Source of the DNA: Octopus sinensis
Taxonomy: Eukaryota
Direction of reading: 5' to 3'
Assembly: GCF_006345805.1 (NCBI RefSeq)
Contig: NC_043008.1
Span: 21,142,001-21,206,000 of the forward strand
DNA: 64,000 nucleotides
The translations under genes and the position numbers were made by a program. Every line of letters begins with the position of its first letter. The first letter of the stretch is position 1. Below are positions 2,426 through 50,015 of the stretch, in pieces. The notes under the pieces were generated by a model that searched no databases, had not been told where the DNA came from, and saw only the letters and a program-made list of their open reading frames with translations.

Positions 2426-2974
2426 AAGTTGTGTTATTGAACTGCAGCATGCTGGGGCTCTGCCTTCAAGAGTTTTAGTTGAACAAATTGACTCGGTACG
2501 TTTTTGTTTTTCTATTTGGAACTTTCGCTGCACTGCTATGTTATGGAGATGTAAACAAACCAATACTGGTTGTCAGGCAGTGATGGAGGACAAATAAAAT
2601 CATGAACATAAAGACACACACACACACACATTATATATCATCATCATCATCATCATCATCATCTTCAACATTCAACAACTGTTCTCTATGCTGGCATGGG
2701 TTGGATGGCTTGACAGGAACTAGCAAGGCCAGGGCCCACACCAAGTTCCATTGTCTATTTTGGCTTGGTTCCTACAGCTGGATGCCCTTCTTAATGCCAA
2801 CCACTCCACAATGTACTGGGTACCTTTTACATGACATCATCACCAGCACTTTTTCAAGGCACCAGTACCCACGCTGATGCTTTTTACGTGACACCTTGGT
2901 TTTAGAGTCTCACTATATATTTGTGTGTGTGTGTGTGTGCATATTTACACATATGATGGGCTTCTTTCAATTTA

Positions 2975-3270
2975 TCATCATCATCGTTTAACGTCCGCTT
3001 TCCATGCTAGCAAGGGTTAGACGATTTTGACTGAGGGCTGGCGAACCAGATGGCTGCACCAGGCTCCAATCTTGATTTGGCAGAGTTTCTACAGCTGGAG
3101 GCCCTTCCTAATGCCAACCACTCCGAGAGTGTAGTGGGTGCTTTTTACATGCCACTGGCATGGGGGCCAGTCAGGCGGTACTGGCAATGACCTTGCTTGA
3201 AACTTTTTACACATGCCACCAGCATGGAAGCCAGTTGGCTGCTCTGGCAACGATCATGCTCGGTGGTGCT
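2975..3270 (-). mobile_element. Family C repeat (RTE-LINE 3' UTR-type end with (GAT)n tail)
   Basis: Sense ...GGAAGGGCATCCAGCTGTAGAAAC...GCTAGCATGGAAAGCGGACGTTAAACGATGATG; further copies near 2636, 3720, 4417, 9480, 13640, 26930, 30915, 34148, 45017. Confidence 0.85.
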
Positions 3271-4726
3271 CTAGGCCTGTTTGCCAAATTCACTCACAAG
3301 GCCTTGTTCAGCCCAGGAATATAATAAAAGACACTTGTCCAAGCTGCTAAGTTGTGGGGCTGAACCCAAGACCACATGGTTGGGAAACAAGTTTCTTATC
3401 CAATACATGCACCTATTTTGTTTAACTTTGAAGTATTGACAGGTACATGATCTCCTTGTGTACTGCGCGTATGGCACAATATGAAGGTCCTGAATTTGAT
3501 GTTATTTTCTAGATTTCCAAATGTGAAACCAATATGGGTCTATTCTTCTGTTACATCATTTTTGACTGAGTAGGCTGATGCAACCCGAAATGAAGTGTCT
3601 TGCTCAATGATACAATGTCCCACCTGGTATATGAATTGAACCCGCAGCCTTATGGCGATGTCAATATCTAACCATTAGACTACTACCGTTACTTCAGGTA
3701 ACAAGTACCATTATTATTATGATCATCACAATTTAATGTCCATGCTCCATGCTGGCTTGGGCTGGACAGTTTGACAGGATCCAGTGGACCCAAGGACTTC
3801 ATCATACTCCAGTGGCTGCTTTGACACAGTTTCTATGGTTGGATTCCCTTCCTGACACCTACCACTTTACTGGGTACTGGGTGCTTTTGTCCATTGGCAC
3901 CAACACTGGTTAGACCATCATGCAGTTTGCACGACTACAAACCCTGAAAGCAAGACTGTTGTAAGGCAACCTCATGCTAGGAGGTGAGGGGCAAAAGATG
4001 AGTAAAATTACAACAGAAGGGACCAGAACCAATTCTTGCCAATAAATGTGTTAGAAAAATGAATTGAAGTGGGTACTCAGTTGCTGAAGAAATTCCAACA
4101 TTGGATTGGAAGTTTTTATGTCCACAAAGGTATTGTATACACAGAGGAGTTTATATCTGTCTGTCTGTTTGTATCTCTCTCTTTTCTTTCTCTCTCTATC
4201 TCCCCCTCTCCCTTGATAAACATATTCTTTCTTTTATTCTTTTATTTGTTTCAGTCATTTGACTGTAGCCTTGGTGGAGCACCGCCTTTAGTCGAACAAA
4301 TCGACCCCAGGACTTATTCTTTGTAAGCCTACTACTTATTCTATCAGTCTCTTTTGCCGAACTGCTAAGTTATGGGGACATAAACACACCCGTATATATA
4401 TATATATATATATATATCATCATCATCATCATTTAACGCCCGTTTTCCATGCTAGCATGGGTTGGTCGGTTCAGCCGGGTCTTGTAAGCCATGAATGCTG
4501 CACCAGGCTCCAGTCTGGTTTGGCAGTGTTTCTACAGCTGGATGCCCTTCCTAACGCCAACCACTCCGTGAGTGTAGTGGGTATTTTTTATGTGCCACCG
4601 ACATAGGGCCAGAGGAGGCTGGCAAACAGCCAAGATCGGTTGGTGCTTTTACGTGTCACCGACACGAACACCAGTCAGGCGGCACTGACATCTGCCACAT
4701 TCGGACGGTGCTTTTTACGTGTCTTA

Positions 4727-4772
<46 letters not shown>

Positions 4773-5099
4773 TGTATATATATGGTGTTAGCTAAAATCT
4801 ATAGATATGTTCTGTAGTAGTTTAGCATTGAAAAAAATTACTGTTAACAAACCAGTAATGTATGAAAAAAGGAAAATGTGGAGGAGAAAGAAAAAAATGA
4901 AACTGAGACAATAGTTTTTATTATCATCTGCATAAACAGAGAAAACTGAACACTAATCTGAATTTCCATGGAAATGATTGAGTAATTTTGTTTTGAAATT
5001 ACTATTGGTGTTTCTATCACCAGTCTCAAATATCTGTTGAGTGCTTGCATCAACGATATACAGTAGTACCACAAATTAACTCATTCCTTTTATTTCCTG

Positions 5100-12232: not shown

Positions 12233-12730
12233 GATGAAATTAAACAAACAAACGAAGTTTGCTTTAGAAGCGTTGAGATGTCTTAGAATGTTAAAGAAGT
12301 GATTTTTTAAATTCTCAAATGCAGGATAATGCTAATAATATAACCTGAACAAGATAAACTACCCCTATTTTGCACAAAAAAAGTGTTGGCGGCCAGCTAT
12401 GAAACTCAAATTCACACCCCTGTGATTACGCTTCGCAGTGCTTTGAACTTTAAGCTAAACTGCTCTCACCACAAATTCTTCCACAAATTTAAGATATATA
12501 GCATCTCATAAAGCGAGATTATTATGTATCTTAAATTTGCAGAAGAATTTGTTGTGAGGGCAGTTTAGCTTAAAGGTGAGAGCACCATGATGCATAATCA
12601 CGGGGGTGTGAGTTCGAGTCTCATAGCTGGCCGCCAACACTTTTTTTTGCAAAATAGGGGTAGTTTATCCTGTTCAGGCTATATTATTAGCATTATCCTG
12701 CATTTTAGAATTTAAAAAATCACTTCTTTA
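12229..12730 (-). mobile_element. Fold-back element carrying tRNA-like units, flanked by (TA)n
   Basis: ~210-bp inverted arms 12292-12505 / 12520-12730, plus a ~63-nt unique tail 12229-12291. Confidence 0.75.
12558..12636 (+). pseudogene. tRNA-like sequence (anticodon position CAT here, CGT in the inverted copy at 12387-12465), followed by T8
   Basis: Cloverleaf by eye: GGGCAGTT-TA-GCTT..GAGC (D arm), CATGA-TGCATAA-TCACG (anticodon arm), GTGAG-TTCGAGT-CTCAT (T arm), AGCTGGCC-GCCA, then TTTTTTTT at 12641-12648; mismatches and G33 suggest non-functional. Confidence 0.6.
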
Positions 12731-12835: not shown

Positions 12836-13325
12836 TTAATCCAAACATGAAAACACAAAAAGAAAACACAACAACGCGAGGACGTGGAACAAGTATAGTA
12901 TTATTGGATGCTCAGGAAAGAAGGAGGGTTTAACGTTTCGAACGGAGCTCTTCGTCAGAAACATAGGAAAAGGAAAGATCCAAAGAAGGGAACACGGAGG
13001 GAAAAAAATCGCCAACGGTACACACGCGGTCACATTTTGAATGACCAGAAGGGAATGGGGGAAGAAAAAGTTCTTTCAAAGACAGGAGAGTGCAAGAGGA
13101 GGTATGTGTGTGTAAGTGTGGATATGTGCGTGCATGCAGGTCTGCGTGTGTGTATGTGTGTGTGTATGTGTGCAATGATAACACATGTGTGTATGGTTGT
13201 GGCTGTTAATCTATGTGTGTGATAGGGCTTAGTATTGTTTAAGGTCAAGGAAGAATGAATTAGGAGTGGCTCTTGTGTCTATCTAACCATGTGGAAAAAT
13301 GGTCAGTGAATGGTACTGGTAGTTT
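12836..13325 (-). mobile_element. Penelope-like pseudo-LTR fragment in (TA)n
   Basis: Contains a minimal hammerhead; (TA)n on both sides. Confidence 0.7.
12928..12962 (-). ncRNA. Minimal type I hammerhead ribozyme
   Basis: GTTT-CTGACGA-A-GAGC-TCC-GTTC-GAAA-CG-TT^AAAC: intact core, stem I GTTT/AAAC, palindromic AACGTT in place of stem III. Confidence 0.85.
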
Positions 13326-19448: not shown

Positions 19449-20892
19449 TTTTTAATTGTGACCTTATAAATCACAGTTACAAACTGAATGATTGATAGAA
19501 CAGTTGATTAGTTAACTAGTCAAGTAGTAATAATAAAAGAAGTGGAATACAATCAGCACGTTATTTTAATTGGCAAGATGACCCTCCCAAGGTATAACAA
19601 TATTTGCCTCAGCACATTGTTATTTAACCCAAGATCAACTTTGACTGAGCAGATCCATGACACTACACAGGTCTTTAGACAAACCACATCCTTGCATTGT
19701 TCTAGATATATCAACATGCACTGTTGTACTTCCTCCACTGTCCAATTTATTTCTGCACCTTTGTTGTCATTGTTATTGTTATTGTTGTTGCTCTTTGGCT
19801 GCTGAGCAGACCTGTGATCAAAGCTATGTGAGCTGTAACCATTTTGTGCCCTTATATTTTATTTCTCAGACTGTGTGCACTCTGGACCACATTGCCTAAA
19901 GTGTTTTTCCCTTTTGAAGATAGTAGTATCTGATCTGTGGTAGATTTTACTGCTATTTCTAGCAGGTTCCTTGACCATGTAGATGCTCTTTTCTGTATTC
20001 TCGAGTTGGCCATAGCAGTGGTGGACAATTTGAAATTGGTTAGAGTATGACAACTGCACATATGCATGCGCACACACATGTGCACATACACACACACATG
20101 TTCATGTACTCACACACACATGCTCACACATACACTCAAACACACACACATACACTTACACACACCACATCATTTGTGCTGTAGTTTAATCATTTCTTTG
20201 AGGCAAGGTGACTGATTTTGTTGGGAACCCTCTGCCTGCAGTGCTTTTGGTGGCAGCATGGAACATTCTTTTCTATTCTAGGTACAAGGCCTGAAATTTT
20301 AGGGGAGGGGGCCAGTCGATTACGTTGACCCCAGTACGCAACTGGTACTTAAATTATCAACCCCGAAAGGATAAAAGGCAAAGTCGACCTTGGCGGAATT
20401 TGAACTCTGAATGTAAAGGCATATGGTACATATGGTTTGTTGAGTAGAAGCGAAATGGCTAAATGGATGAACACATTTTTATTACTGACTTAATATTCAT
20501 GAATGCACACTTGTTTCAGACATTTCAACACATTTCTTCAAATCACCTAACTATTGGATACGCAGGTCCCTGATTTTATGATCAAAAACCAGCAAGGTGA
20601 TCACTCTCTGGTGTAGAGTTTTGATTACCATAAATCAATATCTTGAAGAGTGTAGATTACTTATTGTCTTGATCTAATATATTTTATTTCACCTGTGTTT
20701 CTGTAGAATTTAGCAGGTTTTTTTTTGCATGAAGAGAACATATTTGGAAGTTTAGCATAAGATAACAGTTTACAAATATTACATGTCCACTCTTGAAATA
20801 ATAATTATAGCAGATTAGTTGCCTTAATGAAGTATATTGCGATGCTTTTACTCCTGTATATTTTCTAAGTATTTTCCATAGATTAATCACTA

Positions 20893-21440
20893 AATTTCTG
20901 GGTTCTGACTCGTCATCAGTGTGTGACAATTACAAGTTGTCGATGAAAAGTAGGCCTCCCTTTGCAGATACATAACCTTTTTCCAGTGACGAAAAGTCAC
21001 TGATATTGAAAACGTGTAAACAAGCAATAATAAATCTCTGAGCGAGGTATAAACAGTAGCTGATAGGACACAGAAAATGTGTCAATAGCCAGCTGGAGGA
21101 GGTGTCCTCCTGGGGCTACAAGCTACAGTAACATTCACCCTTAGGGGTTAGCCACATTTAAGTGACAAATATACTTCACGATGTGTTGCAGCTACTGTTT
21201 ATATCTCGATCAGGGATTTATTATTGCTTGTTTACACTTTTTCGATATCAGTGACTTTTCGTCACTGGAAAAAGGATATATATTTGCAAAGGGAGGCCTA
21301 ATTTTTATTGACAACTCATGATTGTCACACGCTGATGACGGGTCAATACCCAGAAACTCGAGTCCGTGTATATCATAGATTGAAGACAGAATAACTAAAT
21401 TAGTTTACTCCTAATCTCTCGCTAATATCCTATTTTTTTC
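20893..21440 (+). mobile_element. Fold-back Penelope-like element with hammerhead and structured loop
   Basis: ~170-bp inverted arms 20893-21062 / 21189-21358; hammerhead at the end of the right arm; unique tail. Confidence 0.8.
21327..21369 (+). ncRNA. Type I hammerhead ribozyme
   Basis: ACACG-CTGATGA-C-GGGT-CAAT-ACCC-A-GAAA-CTCGAG-TC^CGTGT: 5-bp stem I, 4-bp stem II, palindromic ACTCGAGT stem III, GUC cleavage triplet. Confidence 0.9.
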
Positions 21441-21458
21441 TACATATGTTTATGTATA

Positions 21459-21848
21459 CTCTTTTACTTGTTTCAGTCATTTGACTGCGCCCATACTGGA
21501 GCACCGCCTTTAATCGTGTAACTCGACCCCGGGACTTATTCTTTTGTAAGCCCAGTACTTATTCTATCGGTCTCTTTTGCCGAACCACTAAGTAATGGGG
21601 ACATAAACACACCAGCATCAGTTGTTGAGCGATGTTGGGGGGACAAACACAGACACAGAAACATACACACACACACACACATATATATACGATGGGCTTC
21701 TTTCAGTTTCCGTCTACCAAATCCACTCACAAGGCTTTGGTCGGCCCGAGGCTATAGTAGAAGACACTTGCCCAAGGTTCCACGCAGTGGGACTGAAGCC
21801 GGAACCATGTGGTTGGTTAGCAAGCTACTTACCACACAGCCACTCCTG
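21459..21848 (-). mobile_element. SINE family A, full length
   Basis: Match to 1640-2048. Confidence 0.9.
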
Positions 21849-22576
21849 TGTATGTTAGTTAAATCTTAATACTTTCTTAATACTTTTCTTCACACCTTTA
21901 ACTCACATCCAGTCACTAAGCAATTTAAATTTGTTCTGTTTTCAAAGAATCTTTTGTCTTCGTCACATAAGCTAAGTAAATTCAATTTGATTGCTTGTTG
22001 AAATATTCTATTTCTAGTTTCAATCTCGGTATTCTTTCTGTCTTTGGGTATTTCACAGACACTAGCAGCACAATTTACTTTCATGTTATTAAAAACTGCA
22101 GAATTAATAACACTGAACTCACCACCACCACCACCAACATCTGTAACAACTACAATAACATCATTGAGCAAACTGAATTTACAATGGGTCTCATTTGTGA
22201 GTGATTTAATTTAACTATTTAGCTGCCAAATTTCTCCACATCTCAGCATATCTTTGATATTGTATGTCAACTTTGCAAGACCTAAATCCTTGAGCCCCGA
22301 AGGAAAATGTCTACAGAAATGTGTAAGATTTCATGGCAGACAGATTTATTTTATATCTGCTATATCTAAAGATTTCAGTCAAGCATTTTGAAAGAGTGTT
22401 AAGATATTGGATAGTGTGTTGTTGATTTCTTTCCTGCTGTTACTAAGTCTGTCTTGTATTTGAAGCTTACTTTTAACTCTAAAGTTTAGTGATTAAAACT
22501 TGAAACTTAACATACACTCTCTCTCTCTCTTAGTTCATCTAGCTGTAAATAGCTAACATAAGCAGGTACAAGCATC

Positions 22577-34333: not shown

Positions 34334-34630
34334 TAATAAGCCTGCTGGTTATTTGTGATACCAGTGTCTAAAAAGATGCTGGTATTCTACATATCATAGC
34401 AGCGAGATTTGACTTGTATGCAGTGACTGGTGCTTCCCACTGATGAGGTCCAGTAGACTGAAATCACATGATATTGGAATTCTGATACTCATGATAGACG
34501 ATTCTTGTGTGCTACAATCTGTGTGTGTGCTTTTATGCACCAAGCACCTATATGAGAGAATCTCTCAAGGCTAACAATGCAGTATTCAGTGTTCTAGTAA
34601 GGCATCTGTGTCAAGTTGGATATAAAGATT
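34334..34630 (+). mobile_element. Penelope-like pLTR fragment with hammerhead (34434-34479)
   Basis: TTCCCA-CTGATGA-GGTC-CAGTA-GACT-GAAA-TCACATGA-TA^TTGGAA; 3' part recurs at about 57075-57190. Confidence 0.65.
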
Positions 34631-48205: not shown

Positions 48206-49319
48206 GAAGTCTTGCTAGCAAAGAAAGTAGTTTCAAAAATTCAGCAAGAATTACAATGCATAGACTATAGTTATTCCATTGAAAAGAATTATGAATTATA
48301 TTTCTCATGGTGCCTGTATTTTATTTTTTGCCTTTTCATACAGTTCTATTTTGCTTTTTTTCATTGGAACCATTTTGTAAAAATAAATTTTAGATCAGTT
48401 TGTTGAAGCCGTTTAGAAAAGATGAGATAAAAAAAAAACACTGATTAGTCTTAGGGAGAGATTTGTATGAAAGCAGATTTTTTTGTTCTCCTCATAACCA
48501 ATCAAGCATCATAATTTTGTGATCATATTCTGTTATTGTTTCTAAGTATCCTGAAATAGTTCTTATATAGCTTTTGCATGCTATACTTTTATTGGAATGT
48601 TATATGAATGGTTATTGTAATAGCTCTCTTTTTAAATGAAAATTGCATCTTCCTACGCGAATTTATGCTATATCAGAATATCTGATTCAAAAGACTAAAT
48701 AGAATTTTCACTAATTCTTAAATATCTATTTAAAAAATTGTCTGTAATGTAAAATGCTTCATAAATATTTGTAAAAGACACATAATGTTTCTGATTAGTT
48801 TGGAAGTTTTAAAAATATTTTAATTTTCTGAAGAACAATATTAAAAAAAAAAAAGGGAATGATAAAAAAATTTTTAATCAAAATATTATTGTTGAGTGTG
48901 TTTAAGCCTGTTTTATATTTTGGAGTGCAGGATATGAAGTCTATTGAATAGCAGACATAACTGATAAACCAATACAAATGGGAGACAGTTTAATAGTGGA
49001 AGAGAGAGAGAACTTTTAAAAATTCACATTGCAACATATTCTTTATCAAAGATATGAAAGACAGGGAAAGCAAAACAAAACAACAACAACAACAAAAAAT
49101 ATAAAAAGAGCAATAAATTTCATTATCTGTGTCTCATTAACTTTTCAGCAACTAATTTGTTGTAATGTCTTTAAAAACTTCCGAATTAGACTAAAAGCAT
49201 TTTCTTTCCAGCAGTGTGTGGTGTTTATGTTTCTTTTGAACAAATTTGAGCAGTACAAAAGTATCATTCTCTGAGGAAAAGGAAAACATTGATATTAAAC
49301 TAAAACAATTTTATTTAAA

Positions 49320-49850
49320 GCAGTTGTATACTGTCAATTTAATGTGACAGTCCCATAAAGGGAATCACACCACCACTATTTAGCCCTAGGAAGCATCAAC
49401 ACTTCCTGTCGGCCTTGACACATTCCCTGTGTCCTTATGTTTACAAATGGGGAGACAGGCACCCCCATCCAGCTAAGCCTGCATCCAGAGACATCAGTCT
49501 GGAGTAGCATGGCCTGCTCGCTGAAGATACCTGTCTAGACTTTGTAAAGATATGTATATATAATTTCAGTGAAGTAAATTCACTGATCACAAAAAATAGA
49601 AATATTAAATTTCTAAATATCTCAGAGAGATATAAGCAATGGTGGAACGATAGAGCAGTTGTATACTGCCAACTTAACGTGACAGTCCCATAAAGCTAAT
49701 CACACCACCACTATTTAGCCCTAGGAAGCATCAATGCTTCCTGTCAGCCTCGACACATTTCCTGTCTCCTTATGTTTACAAAGGGGAGACAAGCACCCCC
49801 CCCCCCATCCAGCTAAGCCTGCATCCAGATATTTAGAAATTTAATATTTC
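49320..49850 (-). repeat. Two direct copies (~170 bp) of a structured motif; second copy enclosed by a 24-bp perfect inverted repeat
   Basis: Copies 49320-49489 and 49655-49829; IR GAAATATTAAATTTCTAAATATCT at 49599-49622 / 49827-49850. Confidence 0.8.
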
Positions 49851-50015
49851 AATTTTATTTAGAGTAGGATCAAACTGTTTTTTGAGTTTGTATTGAATTT
49901 AAATATTTGGTACTGCATTCACCTTCATACGCGCACTCCGCGCTAGCTAGTCGTGACTAGTCGATCCTACAACGACTACCTAGCAATGAAAATAAAACAC
50001 AAAATAAATAATTTT

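What the first reader, a model, noticed from the sequence alone, without database searches (positions are those of the whole stretch)
21063..21210. Unassigned four-hairpin RNA motif conserved with covariation between two different elements
Seen: the loop of this fold-back and the minus strand of 49320-49440 / 49655-49775 share order and anchors despite divergent stems. Hairpin A: GACACA-GAAAA-TGTGTC vs GACACA-GGGAA-TGTGTC. Hairpin B: TAGCC[GGAGGA-GGTG-TCCTCC]GGGCTA vs GGCC[AGGAAGC..GCTTCCT]GGGCTA. Hairpin C: ..CCC-TTA-GGG..CAC vs GTGA..CCC-TTTAT-GGG..TCAC. Then a TTAAGT linker, hairpin D with TATAC (GTGA..TCAC vs GCAGT..ACTGC), and TG(T/C)TTATATCTC 15-20 nt later. I cannot match it to tRNA, snRNA, SRP, SECIS, HDV, twister or pistol. 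Inference: a functional, possibly undescribed structured RNA (new ribozyme, RT-recognition signal, or IRES-like element for uncapped ribozyme-cleaved RNA).
Basis: partly seen in the sequence, partly recalled or inferred. Interest (0 to 1): 0.85.

Follow-up and report, generated by a model that had tools for sequence, protein, structure and literature searches.

The report
Retrozyme fold framing two priming sites
The motif is a conserved multi-hairpin part of a ~350-base, ribozyme-carrying jumping repeat with over ten thousand copies in this animal genome; it sits exactly where most copies end, so it likely serves as the landing and start site for a borrowed Penelope-type reverse transcriptase.

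Summary
The letters and the homology are real, but the two 'different elements' are two families (62% identical along the whole unit) of one ~350-365 nt non-coding repeat with a type I hammerhead ribozyme: a non-LTR retrozyme, i.e. a non-autonomous Penelope-like element (PLE). At least nine families share the domain; one anchor pattern has 11,756 genome hits against 3 in the control. Hairpins A and B hold. Hairpins C and D do not. Instead there is a hairpin with the TTAAG 'linker' as its loop (T), a long-range stem (L) and a terminal hairpin (E). A+B+L+T beat a tree-aware null (p=0.002), though no single pair is significant. Copies end at two fixed places, inside and just after stem L (42 and 36 of 86; 1 between). 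In 22 of 25 head-to-head insertions one arm uses each place: the PLE 'tail' signature. Best reading: a docking/priming platform for a PLE reverse transcriptase supplied in trans. Against it: no coding PLE among 78 loci examined carries the domain as its own end, and there are no RNA or protein-binding data. No Rfam match.

The parts
21060..21392 (+). Family F1 retrozyme, main arm (unit positions 47-377): motif, tail, spacer, hammerhead. Its 3' end is atypical (neither of the two usual ends).
   Evidence: BLAST of the natural tandem unit from L008 on the window, 91%
20895..21062 (-).
21067..21083 (+). Hairpin A (conserved)
21086..21118 (+). Hairpin B with internal loop (conserved; inner stem covaries)
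21125..21132 (+). 5' arm of long-range stem L
21137..21148 (+).
21151..21166 (+). Hairpin T (TTAAG in the loop); one mismatch in this copy
21179..21183 (+). End class 1 (where about half of the other F1 copies stop); inferred RT start site 1, inside the loop closed by stem L
21191..21198 (+). 3' arm of stem L
21203..21217 (+).
21223..21230 (+). End class 2 (end of the 'tail'); inferred RT start site 2
21249..21267 (+). Spacer hairpin, followed by a TA-rich box and the 5' arm of the long stem that closes the hammerhead region
21327..21369 (+). Type I hammerhead ribozyme motif, palindromic helix III; predicted cut after 21364
   Evidence: pattern match; cleavage not tested
49316..49829 (-). Family F2 retrozyme, partial tandem: motif copy 1 (A 49768-49752, B 49749-49717, L 49712-49703 with 49644-49635, T 49685-49666, E 49633-49617), spacer, hammerhead with its core deleted (49502-49485), motif copy 2 (A 49433-49417, B 49414-49382, T 49350-49331), ending at end class 1
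49827..49856 (+). Short inverted arm of the F2 insertion, ending at end class 2, so this insertion shows the one-short-one-tail pattern
   Evidence: unit 203-233

Best explanation
The motif is the conserved 3' domain of a hammerhead-bearing, non-coding ~350-365 nt repeat (a non-LTR retrozyme) whose copies mostly end at two fixed places in this domain, and it likely acts as the binding and priming platform for a Penelope-like reverse transcriptase-endonuclease supplied in trans, probably of the Neptune clade. Shown: the unit, its hammerhead motif, tandem copies, lack of a long reading frame, the helices A, B, L, T (E conserved without covariation), two sharp 3' end classes with scattered 5' ends, AT-rich targets, and one end of each class in head-to-head insertions. 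Inferred: a tandem transcript (or its hammerhead-released monomer or circle) folds the domain; the enzyme docks on it, nicks both strands of an AT-rich target, and primes once just past hairpin E (site 2) and once in the loop closed by stem L (site 1), copying towards the 5' end; the two copies join at their truncated 5' ends and give the fold-back. The helper's identity, protein binding and the RNA form are not shown.
For: Unit and hammerhead: (periods 349, 355, 357, 362, 365 nt). Nine by-eye family groups keep the domain at 54-62% unit identity for the four units compared. Each copy folded alone gives A and the inner stem of B in 14 of 15, T in 13 of 15 and L in at least 13 of 15 (read by eye). 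Sequence-only alignment of 21 copies, tree-aware null: A+B+L+T 88% paired against 73%, 21 double-changed pair types against 10.4, p=0.002; the 14 copies outside the training families give p=0.002 too. G-U cells 45 against A-C cells 23 on the hammerhead strand. Ends: 42 of 86 copies stop 10-22 nt after T, 36 at 55-80 nt, 1 between, 5 read through, 2 elsewhere; F3 and F4 show the same (17 of 18 and 13 of 17 in the two classes); F1 5' ends scatter from -348 to +180. Head-to-head pairs: 22 of 25 mixed, 50% expected, p=7.6e-5. An anole Poseidon PLE starts reverse transcription inside its RNA at two sites that bound the genomic tail, cuts AT-rich DNA on both strands and needs the RNA region around those sites (PMC11167929). 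Coding RT+GIY-YIG elements with the CxxC linker are abundant here (2,373 pattern hits; Pfam); their ends are followed by TA runs in 12 of 13 loci read, Poseidon-type ends in 0 of 5.
Against: No coding PLE carries the domain as its own end: 78 coding loci searched with model R2 (28, 30, 20; 26 of them showed a hammerhead-bearing end) gave hits in 8 loci, all reading as separate insertions (opposite strand, after a TA tract or intervening DNA, or inside an RT remnant; L264 judged by strand only). Coding Neptune-like elements show two end classes without this domain, so it is not a universal PLE signal. Their tail resembles the retrozyme tail in only 1 of 3 comparisons (p 0.29, 0.49, 0.02). No single base pair reaches E<0.05 (best 0.5-0.6); T, outer B and E alone are not above the null. 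Folding z-scores are modest (+0.3 to -6.3). The distance from the hammerhead is also constant (154-163 nt), so a ruler from the ribozyme cannot be told from a local signal. F6 ends are less sharp. The window's own F1 copy ends at neither site. Most loci were best BLAST hits, not a random sample.
Confidence: 0.55

Rival explanations
1. The fold serves the RNA's own life (correct folding for hammerhead cleavage, circularisation, stability or binding a host protein or ribosome that helps capture the enzyme), and the start sites are set by the enzyme through short sequences or distance, not by the helices.
For: The whole unit is structured and conserved, including a long stem that joins both sides of the hammerhead in 5 families folded as circles. 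Coding PLEs here have two end classes without the domain. Retrozyme circles of mussel, coral and axolotl are abundant and self-paired (PMC7229834 passages).
Against: The two end classes bracket the 3' arm of stem L and hairpin E in F1-F5 and F9, and site 2 moves about 12-15 nt downstream in F2 and F4, which have an extra hairpin after E. No data show a monomer or circle here.
Confidence: 0.25
2. The conserved stretch works as DNA: an internal promoter for the next unit in a tandem, or an endonuclease recognition site, and the hairpins are secondary.
For: A TA-rich box lies in the spacer of the families read. The Drosophila virilis Penelope endonuclease needed the tail sequence in plasmid DNA (as summarised in PMC11167929).
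Against: Compensatory changes in stems L and inner B and more G-U than A-C cells on one strand (45 against 23) point to a folded single strand.
Confidence: 0.07
3. The domain is a second, new self-cleaving ribozyme whose cuts make the two RNA ends that the enzyme then copies.
For: Sharp ends, a branched fold and a conserved internal loop in B; no Rfam match.
Against: The unit already has a hammerhead; two end classes also occur in coding PLEs that lack the domain; internal starts without cleavage are shown for an anole PLE; 5 of 86 copies read through both sites.
Confidence: 0.05
4. The likeness is mostly inherited sequence from one ancestral repeat, with little selection on the fold.
For: The families are homologous throughout; no single pair is significant; the pairs were chosen after seeing F1-F3.
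Against: Tree-aware aggregate test p=0.002 also for the 14 held-out copies; hairpin A keeps its pairing with different letters in F6, F5 and F4 when each is folded alone.
Confidence: 0.05
5. The domain is an IRES-like element for translation of uncapped, ribozyme-cut RNA.
For: It lies downstream of a hammerhead on an RNA predicted to be uncapped after cleavage.
Against: No long frame follows: longest sense ATG frame 34, 66, 8 and 30 aa in four units, not shared; no coding PLE was found with the domain ahead of its frame.
Confidence: 0.03

Closest known systems
Animal non-LTR retrozymes (Cervera & de la Pena 2020, PMC7229834; Li, Clavereau & Pollet 2026, bioRxiv 10.64898/2026.07.22.740005)
   Same: Non-coding tandem units of 150-400 nt (mussel 350-390 nt) with one type I hammerhead each, low GC, thousands of copies, proposed to be moved by PLEs.
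   Different: In the text I read, neither paper describes a fold shared across families, two fixed 3' end classes or mixed-end inverted pairs; the proposed route there is reverse transcription of circles. No cephalopod passage was found in PMC7229834. Its supplement (mussel sequences and folds) could not be read and may show a similar domain.
PLE pseudo-LTR with 'tail' (Poseidon of Anolis, Frangieh et al. 2024, PMC11167929; Craig et al. 2021, PMC8557442)
   Same: Hammerhead upstream, two internal start sites bounding a tail, AT-rich targets, partial tandems, inverted 5'-truncated arm, tail at one end only.
   Different: No reading frame; tail about 42-57 nt against 30-40; start region is a multi-helix domain rather than the 'AC-rich stem loop' inside the frame; the domain is missing from the coding PLE ends examined in this genome.
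PLE-type minimal hammerheads, including the U3-A8 core variant (Cervera & de la Pena 2014, PMC4209133)
   Same: Type I core with short palindromic helix III; F3, F4 and F5 carry the U3-A8 variant, as do the coding Neptune-like elements here.
   Different: The hammerhead is a neighbour of the motif, not the motif.
SINE 3' ends recognised by LINE reverse transcriptases (recalled, no call)
   Same: A non-coding passenger RNA that borrows an enzyme through a structured end.
   Different: No tRNA/7SL/5S head found by Rfam, internal rather than 3'-terminal priming, and no sequence shared with a candidate helper.

Membership tests
Non-LTR retrozyme | Type I hammerhead motif in each unit | tested here: met
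   F9 has a variant core
Non-LTR retrozyme | Tandem units of about 150-400 nt | tested here: met
   349, 355, 357, 362 nt and 365 nt
Non-LTR retrozyme | No protein coding | tested here: met
   longest sense ATG frame 8-66 aa in 4 units
Non-LTR retrozyme | Self-cleavage of the transcript | not testable with these tools
   motif only
Non-LTR retrozyme | Expression as monomer and circular RNA | tested here: inconclusive
   only contigs, RNA status guessed
Penelope-like element insertion signature | Two 3' end classes with an optional tail, usually at one end | tested here: met
Penelope-like element insertion signature | 5' truncation, inverted 5' arm, partial tandems | tested here: met
Penelope-like element insertion signature | AT-rich or (TA)n targets | tested here: met
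   82-87% AT in the 20 nt after the ends, TATA in 22 of 42 and 19 of 36; background 63% AT and 20% per 25-mer
Pseudo-LTR of an autonomous PLE | Flanks an RT plus GIY-YIG reading frame | tested here: not met
   0 of 78 coding loci; 105 motif-side loci also showed no joined frame for the query proteins used
Known Rfam RNA families (tRNA, snRNA, SRP, HDV-like, twister, pistol, hatchet, IRES) | Score at the family's gathering threshold, or a clear E-value, over the motif | tested here: not met
New self-cleaving ribozyme | Protein-free site-specific cleavage | not testable with these tools
   no assay possible
IRES | Lies ahead of a translated frame | tested here: not met

The most novel reading that the evidence does not exclude
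A dedicated, previously undescribed RNA domain, absent from the helper's own RNA, by which a whole superfamily of non-coding retrozymes captures a Penelope-type reverse transcriptase in trans and programs twin priming at two sites (one per nicked strand); a portable ~170-nt handle that could make any upstream RNA a template for insertion.
Probability: 0.3. Interest if true: 0.8.

Novelty: new variant of a known kind. Interest (0 to 1): 0.5.

Why it matters
How animal retrozymes are copied back into the genome, and what a Penelope-type enzyme recognises on its template, are open in the papers read. This genome offers nine diverged families that keep one fold around two fixed ends, a strong one-short-one-tail rule (22 of 25), and intact candidate helper frames (775-781 aa). 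That is direct genomic evidence that these retrozymes move by the PLE two-start-site route, and it hands over a defined RNA, defined mutations and defined enzymes for the existing in vitro assay. The class of element itself is known, which caps the surprise.

Tried and rejected
Rfam at gathering threshold on the window and by E-value on 20800-21500 and three tandem loci: nothing over the motif. Protein-coding homology: rejected. Single-pair covariation test of my own (G-test with correction, tree null): no pair under E 0.05. Pair counts on model-fitted alignments A6 and A8 look strong but lean towards the model and were not relied on. One search's end counts used some truncated references and are replaced. 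Six of 27 copies with 5' junctions inside hairpin A were dropped. Idea that family F9 is a hammerhead-free minimal element: rejected, it has a 365-nt unit. Sequencing runs: searched with an F5 stretch; no RNA holder listed; contigs of four runs under three species labels lie on the F1 unit but cannot show strand, ends, circles or level. Metagenome contigs: 0 matches to the anchor pattern. Earlier scan findings: none. Literature searches that found no description of this domain. Supplements: that of PMC7229834 was unreadable, those of PMC11167929 gave no text hits (figures not held), those of the 2026 preprint are closed.

Full report
Observation. Both stretches are high-copy repeats (2,431 and 2,890 first-look candidates). 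Rfam has nothing over them. A covariance model built from F1 (the 21-kb family) and a third family F3, without the 49-kb family F2, finds both F2 copies in the window at E 6.7e-6 and 3.8e-4 (rough E-values), so the likeness is real.

What the elements are. Both families carry a type I hammerhead motif on the motif's strand (in the window 21327-21369, and a core-deleted one at 49502-49485). Tandem copies give units of 349, 355, 357, 362 and 365 nt. F1 and F2 units align end to end at 62%; the four units compared are 54-62% identical and have no long or shared reading frame. These are the marks of non-LTR retrozymes as described in PMC7229834 (passages read) and in the 2026 preprint that derives them from PLE pseudo-LTRs (parts 1-3 of 5 read). 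The 'two different elements' are therefore cousins. Hammerhead and anchor patterns and the models turned up further groups F4-F9 (grouped by eye). One anchor pattern, which misses F2 and F4, has 11,756 hits against 3 for the reversed control.

The fold, revised. On a sequence-only alignment of 21 copies (27 kept at under 93% identity, 6 dropped for 5' junctions) with a tree-aware null, A+B+L+T are 88% paired against 73% and show 21 double-changed pair types against 10.4 (p=0.002); the 14 copies outside the training families give the same p; L and inner B pass alone, A passes on pairing only, while T, outer B, E and D do not. No single pair is significant, and folding z-scores are modest. The whole unit is structured: in five families a long stem joins both sides of the hammerhead.

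Where copies end. Of 86 distinct F1, F2 and F5 copies, 42 stop 10-22 nt after hairpin T, 36 stop 55-80 nt after it, 1 between, 5 read through and 2 elsewhere. F3 (17 of 18) and F4 (13 of 17) fall in the same two classes; F6 is blurrier. F1 5' ends scatter over 500 nt. Flanks are 82-87% AT against 63%. In 25 head-to-head insertions, 22 have one short and one tailed arm (50% expected, p=7.6e-5). The window's F2 insertion follows this rule; its F1 insertion is an exception, ending near the hammerhead on both arms. Most loci were best BLAST hits; 30 came in genome order. This is the PLE signature: a tail often at one end only, inverted 5' arms and partial tandems (PMC8557442 passages), which Frangieh et al. 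traced to two internal start sites, AT-rich nicks on both strands and a required RNA region around those sites (PMC11167929, parts 1-2 of 4 read).

The helper. G000 holds many coding PLEs: RT plus C-terminal GIY-YIG with a CxxC linker (Neptune-like by that linker, per PMC8557442), 2,373 hits of their active-site pattern, and 220 hits of a second pattern whose sampled copies are mostly degraded and Poseidon-like by recalled motifs. Neptune-like ends are followed by TA runs in 12 of 13 loci and share the U3-A8 hammerhead variant (described in PMC4209133, passages) with F3-F5; Poseidon-like ends are followed by TA runs in 0 of 5. But none of 78 coding loci carries the domain as its own end, and the Neptune-like elements have two end classes with only a short AT-rich leader. 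So the domain is not the general PLE signal; either it is special to the passengers or its helper was not sampled.

Mechanism. Most likely (0.55) the domain docks a borrowed PLE enzyme and presents two start sites, one in the loop closed by stem L and one just past hairpin E, each used once per insertion on opposite target strands. The ends, pairs, targets and helices are shown; docking, helper and RNA form are inferred. The main rival (0.25) is that the fold serves cleavage, circularisation, stability or a host partner, with starts set by short sequence or by distance from the hammerhead, which is also constant (154-163 nt). DNA-level signal (0.07), second ribozyme (0.05), inherited likeness (0.05) and IRES (0.03) fit worse.

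Novelty. The element class is known. I found no description of this domain, of these families, or of the one-short-one-tail count in retrozymes in searches; the library lacks most subscription papers and repeat databases, and unread supplements may bear on this. Verdict: new variant of a known kind, interest 0.5.

Noticed in passing
L090:1174-2610 and 2532-4874 (+); L104; L089: The young Neptune-like elements have two overlapping open frames (479 aa with no Pfam match, then 781 aa RT+GIY-YIG) rather than the single frame described for canonical PLEs; frameshift, intron or second gene not resolved.
   Followed up: partly
L250-L269, L088-L107: Retrozyme copies sit within 4.5 kb windows at 5 of 20 Neptune-like RT loci and at 2 of 20 GIY-YIG loci; at L256 one lies in the TA tract right after the coding element's end. 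Looks enriched, perhaps through shared targets; not tested formally.
   Followed up: partly
L008, L039, L112, L180, L273 tandem units; window 21249-21300: The rest of the unit is also conserved in shape: a spacer hairpin, a TA-rich box and a long stem pairing both sides of the hammerhead, which would hold the ends of a cut monomer together.
   Followed up: partly
L073, L109, L128 (U3-A8); L273, L256, L091 (CCGA core): Hammerhead core variants: U3-A8 in F3-F5 and coding elements; a C at position 4 in F9 and in one coding family.
   Followed up: no
L256, L270, L272: Three independent F9 insertions invert at the same palindromic TA-rich stretch just 5' of hairpin A, and L271 does so in a TA tract there: a possible inversion hotspot.
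   Followed up: partly
window 12936-12958 (-) and 34440-34463 (+): Two other hammerhead-like cores without the motif downstream; the first resembles the end of another repeat family.
   Followed up: partly
window 12559-12632 (+): Weak tRNA match (35 bits), probably a tRNA-derived repeat head.
   Followed up: no
window, families D9, D15, D18, D20: Several abundant ~200-nt interspersed repeats, SINE-like, one directly right of the F1 insertion (21452-21856).
   Followed up: no
just 3' of hairpin T in all families (window 21176-21180): A short conserved pyrimidine-rich word ending in A-C/T precedes end class 1 in most families and could pair weakly with the 3' arm of T; possible sequence part of the start signal.
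   Followed up: no
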